The notes under the pieces: generated by a model
The model's input: the letters and a program-made list of their open reading frames with translations, nothing else
What the model was told of the DNA's origin: nothing
Databases searched by the model: none
NCBI GenBank assembly: GCA_903813345.2
Contig: CAIIXF020000001.1
Location: 6,448,001-6,512,000 of the forward strand
Reading direction: 5' to 3'
Source: Owenia fusiformis
Taxonomy: Eukaryota
DNA length: 64,000 nt
Position numbers and translations under genes: made by a program
Shown here: positions 36,201-42,200 of the stretch, piece by piece
How positions within the stretch are numbered: the stretch's first letter is position 1
Layout of the letters: the number at the start of each line of letters is the position of its first letter

Positions 36201-39200
36201 CTACATCTTTTCAGAAGTTCAAATTTGACTTTACAAGTTCTCAGAAGTTCATATCTGACTTAAGATTTGACCTTTGACCTTCAATGACTTTCTCAAGGTC
36301 AAAAAGGTCTGTTTTCAACTTGCTTCAAATTGACTAATTTTTTTTTCAAAATCATCTACATGTTCTCAGAAGTTCTTCTTAAAGTGTGCGCCAAAGTTTA
36401 AAACTGCGCAGGCGCACCGCTCTCGCTAAACTATATAAAGAGATTACCAGGTACACGATTCAGAGGTAAGCCAGGAAGGCGAACGATCTTCGTCTCGTGA
36501 TGATTTCCCATATAATTGTAACCAGGGAAGTTTCACCATTGAAATTGAAAATTGCTATTAGATATACTTTGTAGATGTTATTTATGAAGCTATTTAGTGT
36601 TTGCATCAATCAAATGGCTCATTTTGAACATATAAAAAGTATTTGTGTTTTGTTTCCCAGGGAATTGTATTGTTTGTAGTACACACATAAATAGTGTACA
36701 TTATACAGTACTTGAATAGCCTGGTTTACATAATATTGAAGGGCATGCTGATTACATGCACACGAGTACATGAATGAAGGCCTAATATAGATATACGTAG
36801 CTTGCATACCTAAATAAAAAATAAACTCTTCTAATCCCCTAATGTAAACACGGCGGTATACGTAGCCCGATTTATCGGAGACTTTAAGGTCAAAAGGTAT
36901 TTTCCAACTTGCTTTAAATTGACCAAATTGTTTTAGGTGGTGACATTTTGTCATGTTAATGCCTTGTTCAATTTTGAAATTGTTCTAATGTCTCCTTTAT
37001 TGTAGACAATTGGCCCTTTTTTCTCTTTATACAAAGAATATAAGATTTCCTTTGACATATTGTTTTGACTATAGTATATTGTATTGATTTTAGGATATTG
37101 TATTGACTCTTACATATTGCTTGACTTTAACATATTGTAATGACATAAGGATATTGTATTGACTCTTACATATTGCTTGACTTTAACATATTGTAATGAC
37201 CTCAGTATATTGTATTGACTCTTACATATTGCTTGACTTTAACATATTGTAATGACCTCAGGATATTGTATTGACTCTTACATATTGCTTGACTTTAACA
37301 TATTGTAATGACCTCAGGATATTGTATTGACTCTTACATATCGCTTGACTTTAACATATTGTAATGACCTCAGGATATTGTATTGACTCTTACATATTGC
37401 TTGACTTTAACATATTGTAATGACCTCAGGATATTGTATTGACTCTTACATATTGCTTGACTTTAACATATTGTAATGACCTCAGGATATTGTATTGACT
37501 CTTACATATTGCTTGACTTTAACATATTGTAATGACCTCTGGATATTGTATTGACTCTTACATATTGCTTGACTTAAACATATTTCATAATTGCTTGTGT
37601 TCCCAGAGAGGTGGATGATGATGAGTACAAAGGTGGGGGTGAGAGTTACTATGGAGTTGCACACAAAATTGTGGAAATTGTCACAGAGCAGGCCTCTATT
37701 ATGGTCAATGGAAAACTAAAGGAATATCAGGTAAGACTAGCTACCCTGTTAATTAGTAAAGACAATGAAGAAAGCTTCTTGCAAAATCTCTCATTTTGGT
37801 ATTATTGAAGTTGCATCATATTTTGTAATAGTATGTGGCTACATTATCATACTATTATATATAACCGACCAATTTAGTATAGAACCAATAATGAACCAGA
37901 CTTTCAAATATGCAAGAATATCTTTACTGACACAGAATAACTTCAAATTCCTTCCTGGTACAGCACATGGATTATTTGGAACTTTTGCTCAGCAGATAAA
38001 TGTTTATAGGTTTATTAATGTAAATATTTGAATTATAAACAATACTTCATGAAATGCATGATCACATACATTTATATTTACTTGCACATGCATATATATA
38101 TATGCATATAAATATGTTTCGTATATACATTTGTCATTTATGTAACCAAAGAATTGTGATGTGCCTGATACATGTATTTATATATCAAATAAGAAACAGA
38201 CATTTACCTTATAAATATGTGTGCCTGTTTCCCAAAGCACATCTTGAATAGATACACCTGAAGGGTAAGTATATGATATATGAAGTTATGTATATTAGGT
38301 TACCTAATAAAGGAACCGTAAAAACAAAATAAAAACAAGTTAAAACAATTGATTTTTTATTTCTGTGTACTTGTATGTTTATCTATGTTGCATGGCTGAC
38401 TTTCAGATTAAGGGACTGCAGTGGCTAGTGTCCCTCTATAACAACAGTCTCAATGGAATCCTTGCTGATGAGATGGGCCTGGGCAAGACCATACAGACCA
38501 TAGCTTTAATCACATATCTCATGGAGGCTAAAAACAATAAAGGACCATATCTGATCATTGTGCCACTGTCGTAAGTATAGCATAGACCCATGTACAGTTG
38601 GGCCCCTACAAGTTCATGTCTGTTAAAGCGGAAAGCTCTTTAGAATGTTTTTTTGTTTACTAAAATTCCAAATAGACATGTTAAACTGAAAGTAAAATAC
38701 TATTAAAGAAAGGCAATAAGATTTGAACTGGAAAGCTTTGATATGTTTACATTGACACTGCTGAACAGACAGTAACTTGCAAGGGCCTTAGAATATTAAT
38801 CACTGTATGAGAGATGTCTCAGTGAAAAAAAAACCTGCAAATTATTCAAAATAATATTTTTGATGCATGTTTATCCGTATGTTTATTGATGATAAACATT
38901 TTGTTATTATAATTTATTTTTCCCCTAAATTCACTTGAGGCATCTCAATATTACACATTCTCATTTCTTATAGGGAGTCCTGTAAAACAACACCTAGATG
39001 GACTGATGGTGCTTCTGTTTCAATAAATGGGGTTTACATATTTCATATTAAGGAGAATTGTGATAAATTGTGGGGTTTACATATTGTAGGTCAAGGGCCT
39101 TCAGTGGTTGGTTTCATTGTACAACAACAACCTGAATGGCATCTTGGCTGATGAAATGGGCCTAGGCAAAACAATTCAAACTATTGGCCTGATCACTTAC

Positions 39201-42200
39201 TTGATGGAGACAAAGAGAGTCAATGGACCTTATCTTATTATAGTTCCATTGTCGTAAGTGGTATCATGACAGCGAGCCAGCAATGTTTCAAATAAGCTTT
39301 GTGCTTTTTCTGTATACAATTAAACCAAAAAGCATGACATGTAGAGAGATGTTATTTGTTCTTGGGTAATTATACAAATTATTGCTGCGCTTCTGTTTGT
39401 GTTGGTTTTGAATTGTTCATGCTGTTTTTGTTGCTATGGCTTAAGGCTTCTTGATCATAATCTTCAATGGTATGTGAATATATGTGTACATGTTATGTCA
39501 TTATACATGTCACTGGTTTGTCACCTTTAATTTGGATTTGAGTCACCTTATTCCAGAAAATATAATAATAAACAGTTCATCCTATCAGTTAGCCTTATGC
39601 ACAGCCTCAGTCTCTCAATCGTTATTGCACTTCATTGAATTTAGAGTTGGGGCTCTAGTCACTAAAGAAAATGGACCATTTTCATGTAAATCACGAAAGA
39701 CTTGACTAAGAAAGCATTTTTGTTCAGTTTTATGCATTATCATTCCATATTAATGCTTTGAATATACATGCTCATTTGATACCCAGGGCATGTATTATTG
39801 TTCTACTAGGCCTATTAAGGTATTCTAGTTCTTAGTTGCTTTTGATATTATAGAGTATGTTTTGATATAATGTCAATTGTTGTATTAAGAAATCATGTCA
39901 CAACTTATAAATATATAAATTAAAGAAATACAGAATAATTAGAATATATCAATTCAACATATCTAAGTAATCACATGTATTACTTCAATTTAATTCTAGC
40001 ACACTATCTAATTGGATGTTGGAGTTTGACAAATGGTCGCCTTCAGTGATCAAGATAGCGTACAAGGGATCACCGAATGCCAGAAAATCTCTTCAGTTCC
40101 AAGTGCGATCTGGCAAATTCAACGTTCTCCTAACAACATATGAGTATGTGATCAAAGATAAAGGTGCCCTGGCTAAGGTAAGAAAACGAATCCTATTTCT
40201 ACCATCCATGTAAGCCAGTACATTTTTTTTATATTAAGATGCTTTTCATTTCTTTTGTATTTTCTCTTTGAAAGGCTGCTTGGAATCCTTTCAAGCTGAA
40301 ACCAAAATCAATTTATTTCAATTTCAATACAGGTTTGTAATATTATTTTATTTCATGTCTTTTCAACCTATGTATATGTAGAGATCCATAATTAATTTCC
40401 AAGCGGATGTCATTGTGATAATAAGATTCAAGATTTTATTATGTTTCAAGCCAAACCAATTGACATCCTCACAAAATCAATTACAAGACATAATAATTAT
40501 ACAGTAAAATGCATTGTTAAACAAATATTTACATATAACTGTCTTACAAACTAGTTTATTCCTTTTTCAAATACCTCCCGACGTTGATTGAAAAGTTTAT
40601 TTATAAATGTATCAATTTGTTTACAATTTCACATTTAATAATAACATTACATATACTTATTTTAGGTTCGCTGGAAGTACATGATAATTGATGAGGGTCA
40701 TCGTATGAAGAACCACCACTGTAAGCTGACGCAAGTCCTCAACACACATTATATTGCCCCTCATAGGTTACTCCTCACTGGGACACCTCTACAAGTAGGT
40801 CAATTGCCATAAATTGTGTAATCATCGTACCAATAGTGTATATTATTGGCTCACACAGTTAGCCTATGGAATCAACTAGGCGTCTGTCTGTCTCTTGATC
40901 CGTCCATCTGTCTGTCCTTTTTTACCTACAGTATCAAGAGAGTAGTAATTTTCAAATGATAATATAAATGTTATATTGTTAAGTAAATAAATATGATCGT
41001 AAAGTTCTGTTTGCAACAGTTAGTGGCGTATTCTGTTTATGAACTTATTTTCTTTTTACTTCAGAACAAACTTCCAGAATTGTGGGCCTTATTGAACTTC
41101 TTGCTTCCTCACATATTCAAGTCTTGCAGCACATTTGACCAGTGGTTCAATGCACCATTTGCAATGACAGGAGAGAAGGTAATGTAATGTAGATTTGCTT
41201 TAAAAATATGACAGGCTAAAGTACATTTATATATCTTTTTACATTCCCACTGTTATTCCTCAACTGCTATCTCATTTTTAATAAATCTTTGAAGTCTTAT
41301 ACTACATATGAAGGTTCATTAGAATAGGTTATATGCAGATCAAAGATAAACATGCAATATTCTACATACCGTTTTAATGATATTAAATCATCAGTCATAT
41401 TCAATACTTAAATGGATGAACACAATACATTGTGTATGTTCACAATTTGCTTTTAGGTTGAGTTGAATGGTGAGGAATCTCTTTTGATTATTCGTCGTCT
41501 TCACAAAGTGCTGCGTCCATTCTTGCTACGTCGTCTCAAGAAAGAAGTGGAGAGTCAGCTACCTGATAAGGTGAGAAATGCCGATATTTAACCAAAAAAT
41601 AGAGGTCATTTTTGTTTGTAATATTATATAAAATATTAATTTTATGCAATGCTAATAGTTTCTAATACTCAAATAGTGTGACACTTGTTTCTAAACCTTA
41701 CAAAGTTTGCATTTTTAATAGTTTGTTATTTATGTAACTTTATGCTTGTATTGTAGGTTGAGTACCTGATCAAGTGTGAGTTGTCAGCTCTTCAGAGGTA
41801 TGTTTACAAACACATGGCCACCAAAGGAATACTTCTGACTGATGGATCAGAAAAAGACAAGAAGGTAGAAGATACTTTCTGTTGTTTTATGTATATTTAA
41901 TGTAGACTAGAAATATACGAAGTGGCGTATAATACAATGGCCCATTCTGTATAATGTGTTTTTATGCTCCAATTGCATTGATATGTCATCAAGGCGCACA
42001 AATATAATCATGATATATAGAATGAACTATCATTTCCTTGTAGTGTATTATTCAATCTTCACTGAGCATTTGAAATCTGTATGATGAAGATGTTTACACG
42101 CCTTGATTGTTTTCTGTAGGGCAAAGGGAGTACAAAGACATTGATGAACACGATCATGCAGCTAAGAAAGATCTGTAACCATCCATTCATGTTCCAACAC

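What the first reader, a model, noticed from the sequence alone, without database searches (positions are those of the whole stretch)
38407..39253. Duplicated, mutually exclusive Walker A exon in the brahma/SMARCA4 ATPase core
Seen: two 164-nt exons 519 nt apart, with the same phases and the same TC|gtaagt donor. By my count about 29 codons differ synonymously and only 7 change the amino acid (I/V, S/N, A/G, and AKNNK vs TKRVN). That pattern indicates an old duplication with both copies under purifying selection, not an assembly artefact. Including both or neither frameshifts. Known: this exon carries motif I (DEMGLGKT) up to motif Ia of the remodeller motor; vertebrates diversify this subunit with two paralogues (BRM, BRG1). 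Copy 13b (NNNLN, KRVNGP) is closer to the vertebrate sequence as I recall it. Inference: a single-copy invertebrate brahma makes two motor variants by splicing, differing mainly in the loop between motifs I and Ia. I am not aware of this being described.
Basis: partly seen in the sequence, partly recalled or inferred. Interest (0 to 1): 0.9.

Follow-up and report, generated by a model that had tools for sequence, protein, structure and literature searches.

The report
Swappable duplicated exon in annelid brahma
The brahma/BRG1-type chromatin-remodelling gene of the annelid Owenia carries two old tandem copies of the exon that holds its ATP-binding motif; a close relative's RNA uses one copy or the other, a well-known splicing device that I did not find reported for this motor.

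Summary
Exons 38407-38570 and 39090-39253 are both 164 nt, share phase and ag|..|gtaagt borders, and differ at 48 nt (29 synonymous and 7 replacement codons).

The gene is the brm/SMARCA2/4 orthologue of Owenia fusiformis.

Both copies are under purifying selection. Synonymous sites are fully randomised, so the duplication is old.

RNA contigs of a close relative (organism B) give two equal-length alternative paths. Each exon copy is joined to the same upstream and downstream exons, at depths 83 (A) and 42 (B). That is direct evidence of mutually exclusive use.

Three stranded RNA-seq runs labelled as the window's species show only exon A: 275 and 193 junction reads against 0 and 0 for exon B.

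Including both exons or neither gives an early stop codon.

Copy B looks ancestral and copy A derived. I found no second copy or isoform pair in the other animals I could survey. I found no published description.

Verdict: a real mutually exclusive exon pair, a new member of a known kind. Its functional meaning and its use in this species are untested.

The parts
30266..46790 (+). Coding span of the brm/SMARCA2/4-type gene, about 27 exons located
   Evidence: tblastn of P0002 ('unnamed protein product [Owenia fusiformis]', 1535 aa) against the window. Pfam finds QLQ, HSA, BRK, SNF2-rel_dom, Helicase_C, SnAC and Bromodomain.
37606..37730 (+). Constitutive upstream exon. It ends ...KLKEYQ in phase 0, with donor CAG|gtaaga.
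   Evidence: In one search, loose ends at 37605 mark its acceptor, and depth is 70-174.
38407..38570 (+). Exon copy A, 164 nt. It runs from motif I (DEMGLGKT) to motif Ia, with loop AKNNK. It is the derived copy and the one used in the deposited annotation.
   Evidence: 100% identical to P0002. In one search, junctions 37730>38407 and 38570>40000 appear in all 4 runs.
38571..39089 (+). 519-nt intron between the two copies, U2-type gtaagt...tag. It shows no homology to the other flanking introns.
   Evidence: RNA depth is about 0.
38601..38787 (+). Inverted repeat (arms 38601-38624 and 38764-38787, 24 nt, 83% complementary), starting 31 nt after exon A's donor. It is a possible regulatory stem and only a lead.
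   Evidence: I1. In one search, the fold of 38571-38800 has z = -2.15, and 4 of 200 shuffles fold as well.
39028..39096 (+). Short direct repeat (39028-39053 and 39071-39096, 81%) that duplicates the acceptor region of exon B.
   Evidence: D3. Not followed up.
39090..39253 (+). Exon copy B, 164 nt, covering the same motifs with loop TKRVN. It is the ancestral-like copy and is not in the deposited annotation.
   Evidence: In one search, a 216-nt contig of organism B joins it to 37730 and to 40000 at depth 42.4. The three organism-A runs give no junction reads.
40000..40179 (+). Constitutive downstream exon. It starts in phase 2 and encodes ...[12 protein letters not shown]...

Best explanation
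This is a genuine pair of mutually exclusive exons made by an old tandem duplication of one exon of the brahma/BRG1-type SWI/SNF ATPase gene in the Owenia lineage. Each copy encodes the stretch from just before motif I (Walker A, DEMGLGKT) to motif Ia. A transcript takes either A or B between the same two constitutive exons.

Taking both copies, or neither, shifts the frame and meets a stop codon within 15 or 3 codons. Such transcripts are unproductive and, by inference, removed by nonsense-mediated decay. The frame is therefore at least one enforcer of exclusivity.

Copy B keeps the sequence typical of other animals. Copy A has diverged about twice as far and is the main form.

All catalytic residues are identical. 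The fixed differences are the first residue, one residue before motif I, and four to five residues in the loop between the helix that follows Walker A and the motif Ia strand (human BRG1 799-803). I infer that the two motors share the same chemistry but differ in a surface or regulatory property of ATPase lobe 1.

Exon choice is regulated or lineage-dependent. B makes about one third of transcripts in the sampled relative and under about 2% in three samples of the window's species.
For: Anatomy: the two copies have equal length, phase and splice sites. Only this exon is doubled.

Selection: differences fall 9/4/35 by codon position, p = 1.9e-8. pN/pS is 0.10. Synonymous codons are fully randomised, 29 of 47 against 28.2 +/- 3.1 expected, so an unused copy would long since have decayed.

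Splicing, run X13, organism B: there are two 216-nt contigs. One holds exon A with joints 37730>38407 and 38570>40000 at depth 83.3. The other holds exon B with joints 37730>39090 and 39253>40000 at depth 42.4. All joints are GT..AG and intron bins have depth 0. The two depths sum to 125.7, close to the 132.9 of the shared upstream contig. No joint A>B and no joint skipping both was listed in any run.

Frames: A-only and B-only are open. A+B stops 15 codons into B. Neither stops after 3 codons.

Between organisms A and B, exon B differs at 2 of 166 nt, both in one codon. Flanking exons differ at 17 of 303 nt (Fisher p = 0.025). Exon A differs at 5 of 168.

Polarity: of the 44 relatives most similar in the ATPase core, 43 carry a B-like loop.
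Against: Three stranded RNA-seq runs labelled as the window's species (X18-X20, all from one study, 6-12% of each run read) gave 0 junction reads to exon B. Exon A had 65/58/152 upstream and 50/59/84 downstream junction reads. At 39211, a place unique to exon B, depth was 1, 0 and 0.

The apparent depth at 39139-39172 comes from another SNF2-family mRNA, because those reads have loose ends on both sides.

No protein carrying exon B at 100% identity is in the 5.8-billion-protein collection. This is weak evidence, because the exon-A form is there only from the deposited annotation.

The evidence for B in RNA rests on one run of one relative, seen as assembled contigs rather than reads.

No functional difference between the two forms has been tested.
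Confidence: 0.8

Rival explanations
1. Exon B is used in the sister lineage but has fallen silent in the window's species. There it would be a still-intact relic, with only the exon-A motor made.
For:: 0 exon-B junction reads in X18, X19 and X20, against 275 and 193 exon-A junction reads. The deposited annotation uses A only.
Against: Exon B has an open frame, intact ag and gtaagt sites, and 164 of 166 nt identical to the expressed exon of organism B, with no synonymous change at all. The three runs come from one study and their tissues and stages are unknown to me.
Confidence: 0.12
2. Exon B acts as a 'poison' exon. It would be included together with A to shift the frame and lower brm output through nonsense-mediated decay, rather than to make a second protein.
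For: A+B gives a stop codon 15 codons into B.
Against: In organism B, exon B is joined directly to the upstream constitutive exon, not to A, and no A>B joint is listed. Its protein sequence is conserved, with pN/pS 0.10 and 47 of 54 residues kept despite saturated synonymous sites. A poison exon would not need that.
Confidence: 0.04
3. The pair is an artefact: a haplotype or paralogue mis-join in the assembly, or the exon-B contig of organism B comes from a second brm gene.
For: None positive. No genome is held, so copy number could not be checked.
Against: The copies differ at 29% of bases, and the homology ends at the splice sites. The two contigs of organism B have the same length (216 nt) and stop at the same points in the same flanking exons. 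This is the signature of two alternative paths between shared flanks, not of a paralogue with flanks of its own. The other SNF2 contigs in that run match only 34-44 nt.
Confidence: 0.02

Closest known systems
Mutually exclusive exons derived from tandem exon duplication in general. Examples: COQ-2 a/e exons of annelids, molluscs and nematodes (PMC7434440, search listing only; PMC12403961, one passage read); ATE1 7a/7b (PMC7797038, abstract); insect Mhc (PMC2257972, abstract).
   Same: Adjacent homologous exons of equal length and phase. One or the other is spliced in. Both are under purifying selection, and the substitutions are conservative and clustered.
   Different: Here the exon carries the Walker A motif of a SWI/SNF chromatin-remodelling motor. 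I found no report of such a pair in this gene family. The way exclusivity is enforced has not been established beyond the reading frame.
Vertebrate SMARCA4 (BRG1) and SMARCA2 (BRM), two paralogous and mutually exclusive catalytic subunits (abstracts of PMC6691015 and PMC12326009 in the listing)
   Same: Two alternative versions of the same remodelling ATPase in one animal, only one of which sits in a given complex.
   Different: In vertebrates these are two whole genes that differ along their length. Here it is one gene with two versions of a 54-residue segment that differ at 6-7 residues. Functional equivalence of the two arrangements is conjecture.
Human SMARCA4, listed among annotated three-exon mutually exclusive clusters (PMC6071210, one passage read)
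   Same: The same gene family, and annotated as mutually exclusive splicing.
   Different: The passage does not say which exons or whether they are homologous. As I recall, they are small cassette exons outside motif I. Not checked.
Rotifer beta-arrestin 73-nt tandem exon pair
   Same: The same device found in the same way: a previously unannotated second exon copy.
   Different: A different gene and phylum. I did not check that claim.

Membership tests
Snf2-subfamily SWI/SNF ATPase (brm / BRG1 / SMARCA2/4) | Domain order QLQ - HSA - BRK - SNF2 N-terminal - Helicase C - SnAC - bromodomain | tested here: met
   all seven Pfam families are above their curated cut-offs in P0002. P0002 maps at about 100% identity on window exons 30266-46790.
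Snf2-subfamily SWI/SNF ATPase (brm / BRG1 / SMARCA2/4) | Intact motif I (DEMGLGKT) and motif Ia segment in the translated exon | tested here: met
   both copies encode it; exon B aligns end to end with human BRG1 residues 759-812 (6lth_I and others, E = 1.5e-26).
   no genome is held for this window.
Mutually exclusive exons from tandem exon duplication | Two neighbouring homologous exons with the same length, phase and canonical splice sites | tested here: met
Mutually exclusive exons from tandem exon duplication | Each copy is found in mature RNA joined to the same upstream and downstream exons | tested here: met
   run X13 (organism B, a close relative): both forms are present at depths 83.3 and 42.4. 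In the window's own species (X18-X20) only copy A was seen, so for that species the test is inconclusive.
Mutually exclusive exons from tandem exon duplication | No productive mRNA with both copies or with neither | tested here: met
   both such forms carry early stop codons; no A>B joint and no skip-both joint is listed in 4 of 4 runs. The listing threshold is 3 reads or one contig.
Mutually exclusive exons from tandem exon duplication | Both copies evolve as coding sequence | tested here: met
Mutually exclusive exons from tandem exon duplication | A known exclusivity mechanism: steric hindrance, U2/U12 incompatibility, competing RNA stems, or frame plus decay | tested here: inconclusive
   The 519-nt intron rules out steric hindrance, and both donors are U2-type gtaagt. 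One intronic stem is only a modest lead (z = -2.15). The frame argument holds, but decay itself was not tested.

The most novel reading that the evidence does not exclude
An early-branching annelid lineage diversifies the catalytic motor of its SWI/SNF remodeller by regulated exon swapping. A derived 'A' motor and an ancestral-type 'B' motor would be deployed in different stages or tissues and differ in a lobe-1 surface loop that tunes ATPase coupling or partner binding. This would be a splicing-based counterpart of the vertebrate BRG1/BRM division of labour.
Probability: 0.3. Interest if true: 0.7.

Novelty: new member of a known kind. Interest (0 to 1): 0.45.

Why it matters
Alternative versions of the SWI/SNF ATPase are known in vertebrates as two paralogous genes. 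Here one gene offers two versions of the ATP-binding segment. The pair isolates a handful of natural, selected substitutions next to Walker A (human BRG1 positions 759, 772 and 799-803). These could be tested directly for effects on ATPase rate, coupling or subunit contacts. It also adds a case to the argument that exon duplication with exclusive splicing, and gene duplication, are interchangeable routes to the same end. Practically, the deposited gene model misses exon B.

Tried and rejected
**Run search.** No RNA holder was listed. I laid three raw-read RNA runs with the same species label and one contig run of a relative.

**Own genome.** Not held, so copy number and paralogues were not tested.

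**Protein collection.** No protein is 100% identical to exon B among longer proteins (best 93%) or among proteins of 29-95 aa (best 94%). This is uninformative, because Owenia RNA assemblies seem absent from the collection.

**A lead dropped.** P0017, P0024 and P0027 against P0018, P0037 and P0072 share a 25-residue downstream flank but differ in this exon. One search showed further differences downstream and different upstream structure. They are different species or genes, not isoforms.

**Isoform survey.** In 9 clusters, excluding Owenia's own single-member cluster, no two members of one species differ in this exon. The clusters cover four scallop species, salmon louse, Rhodnius, Halyomorpha X1-X5, cestodes, Diamesa and two unnamed Logan clusters.

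**Metagenome loci.** 0 of 80 loci hold a second copy within the flanks held. The one '2 places' row is the same place counted twice. By identity, only about five of the loci look metazoan.

**Earlier findings.** Nothing on this genome or gene.

**NG86 pS of 0.96.** This is an overestimate caused by two-fold sites. I replaced it with the codon-draw test.

**Literature.** Searches gave no description of this exon pair. I read passages only of PMC6071210, PMC9741552, PMC5740500, PMC12153100, PMC12403961 and PMC8140736.

**Three-dimensional placement of the variant residues.** Not attempted, because no tool here returns coordinates.
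Full report
**What is there.**
- Exon A is 38407-38570 and exon B is 39090-39253. Each is 164 nt, preceded by ag and followed by gtaagt. They are separated by a 519-nt intron.
- Only frame 0 is open in both.
- 48 of 164 bases differ: 9, 4 and 35 at codon positions 1, 2 and 3 (chi-square 35.5, p = 1.9e-8).
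- Of the 54 codons, 18 are identical, 29 are synonymous changes and 7 are replacements: I/V, S/N, A/G, and AKNNK versus TKRVN.
- The repeat finder sees the pair as one 172-nt repeat that ends at the splice sites.
- tblastn of the annotated protein finds a double hit for this exon only.

**The gene.** A protein search with exon A returns P0002, 'unnamed protein product [Owenia fusiformis]', at 100% identity. P0002 maps on the + strand from 30266 to 46790 in about 27 exons. It has the full brm/BRG1 domain set: QLQ, HSA, BRK, SNF2, Helicase_C, SnAC and bromodomain. The exon corresponds to human BRG1 residues 759-812, and the variable loop to 799-803. The deposited model uses exon A. No protein in the collection carries exon B at 100% identity.

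**Age and selection.**
- pN/pS between the copies is about 0.10.
- The Nei-Gojobori pS of 0.96 is inflated by two-fold sites, so I tested saturation directly. Of the 47 residues that are identical, 29 use different codons. Drawing codons independently from this gene's own usage predicts 28.2 +/- 3.1.
- Synonymous sites therefore keep no trace of common origin, while 47 of 54 residues, the frame and both splice sites are kept.
- This pattern is expected only if both copies have been translated for a long time.

**Splicing evidence.** I had one lay of reads, on 37550-40250.

*Run X13, organism B.* This is a relative whose flanking exons differ from the window at 17 of 303 bases.
- It is kept as contigs, and its intron bins have depth 0.
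- It holds two 216-nt contigs. One carries exon A with joints 37730>38407 and 38570>40000 at depth 83.3. The other carries exon B with joints 37730>39090 and 39253>40000 at depth 42.4.
- All joints are GT..AG.
- Both contigs stop at the same points in the same flanking exons. Their depths sum to 125.7, against 132.9 for the shared upstream contig.
- This is what two alternative paths of one transcript look like. It argues against a separate paralogue.
- Exon B would make up about one third of transcripts in that sample.

*Runs X18, X19 and X20.* These are raw stranded RNA-seq runs with the same species label as the window. They come from one study, and 6-12% of each was read.
- Junction reads to exon A were 65, 58 and 152 upstream and 50, 59 and 84 downstream.
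- Junction reads to exon B were zero.
- Depth at 39211, inside the part unique to exon B, was 1, 0 and 0.
- The apparent depth of 14-21 at 39097-39187 comes from reads that match only 39139-39172 and run on into other sequence on both sides.
- That loose end translates as LQCITLLWT. I recall this as RAD54-like, so these reads would come from another SNF2-family mRNA.

No joint from A to B, and no joint skipping both exons, was listed in any of the four runs.

**Exclusivity.** Joined in silico, A-only and B-only read through. A+B stops 15 codons into B, and skipping both stops after 3 codons.
- The 519-nt intron excludes steric hindrance, and both donors are ordinary U2-type.
- An inverted repeat (38601-38624 with 38764-38787) lies 31 nt after exon A's donor. 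The region folds somewhat better than shuffles (z = -2.15, 4 of 200 as good). This is only a lead.
- That unproductive forms are removed by decay is inference.

**Which copy is the original.**
- Among the 44 collected proteins most similar to P0002 in the ATPase core outside this exon (molluscs, insects, vertebrates and others, about 74-80% identical), 43 have a B-like loop. One unnamed Logan protein, P0407, has an A-like loop.
- Against the pearl-oyster protein P0161, B differs at 4 residues and A at 8 (sequences).
- Of 199 distinct homologous segments, 139 are closer to B, 50 closer to A and 10 are ties. The sample leans to B because two of the three searches used B as query.
- Both copies share Q in GLQW, where 174 of the 199 have E. 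This suggests the duplication happened within this lineage rather than in a distant ancestor.
- Between organisms A and B, exon B differs at 2 of 166 bases, both in one loop codon (T to M). The flanks differ at 17 of 303 (Fisher p = 0.025 for B against the flanks).
- Extra constraint on the bases of a regulated exon would explain this, but the numbers are small.

**How far it extends.** I could not search animal genomes.
- In 9 protein clusters, no species has members that differ in this exon. The clusters cover four scallop species, salmon louse, Rhodnius, Halyomorpha isoforms X1-X5, cestodes, Diamesa and two unnamed clusters.
- 0 of 80 metagenome loci with a related exon hold a second copy in the flanks held. 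Only about five of these look metazoan.
- These are weak negatives. So far the pair is known only from the two Owenia lineages.

**Comparison with what is known.** The device, tandem exon duplication with mutually exclusive splicing, is well known. An earlier finding of this scan (e1-2577647) is another example. In seven literature searches and passages of six papers I found no report of such a pair in a brm/BRG1 gene. One paper lists human SMARCA4 among annotated three-exon clusters without detail (PMC6071210).

**Verdict.** Mutually exclusive use is shown in a close relative and not yet in the window's species. Function is inferred only. It is a new member of a known kind.

Noticed in passing
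window 39139-39172: In all three raw RNA runs, 26-35 reads match only this 34-nt motif-I stretch and continue into other sequence on both sides. The downstream loose end translates as LQCITLLWT, which I recall as RAD54-like. Conserved motif I therefore draws cross-mapping reads and can mimic exon-B expression.
   Followed up: partly
window 38566, 40042 and other places in table 3: The RNA runs of the window's species carry common variants relative to the window. For example, 38566 C>T appears in 43 of 54, 48 of 61 and 78 of 87 reads, and 40042 T>C in nearly all reads. All those I checked in exon A are synonymous.
   Followed up: no
window 34395-37595: Residues about 600-640 of P0002 (an acidic stretch) gave no tblastn hit, so one small exon in this 3.2-kb gap was not located.
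   Followed up: no
protein P0001, named Dendrobium chrysotoxum hypothetical protein: This protein contains the motif I to Ia segment twice, with near-identical copies 72 residues apart, including the following exon's sequence. It looks like an in-frame tandem duplication or an annotation artefact in a plant SNF2 gene.
   Followed up: no
protein P0004, named Rhizoctonia solani STH1/SNF2: The 17-residue stretch before motif I is repeated in tandem in the protein.
   Followed up: no
proteins P0003 and P0407, unnamed Logan assemblies: An unidentified animal has an exon-A-like loop (EAKNNR) in its brm protein. This could be convergence or an older origin of the A type. Its ATPase core is no closer to Owenia than mollusc proteins are.
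   Followed up: partly
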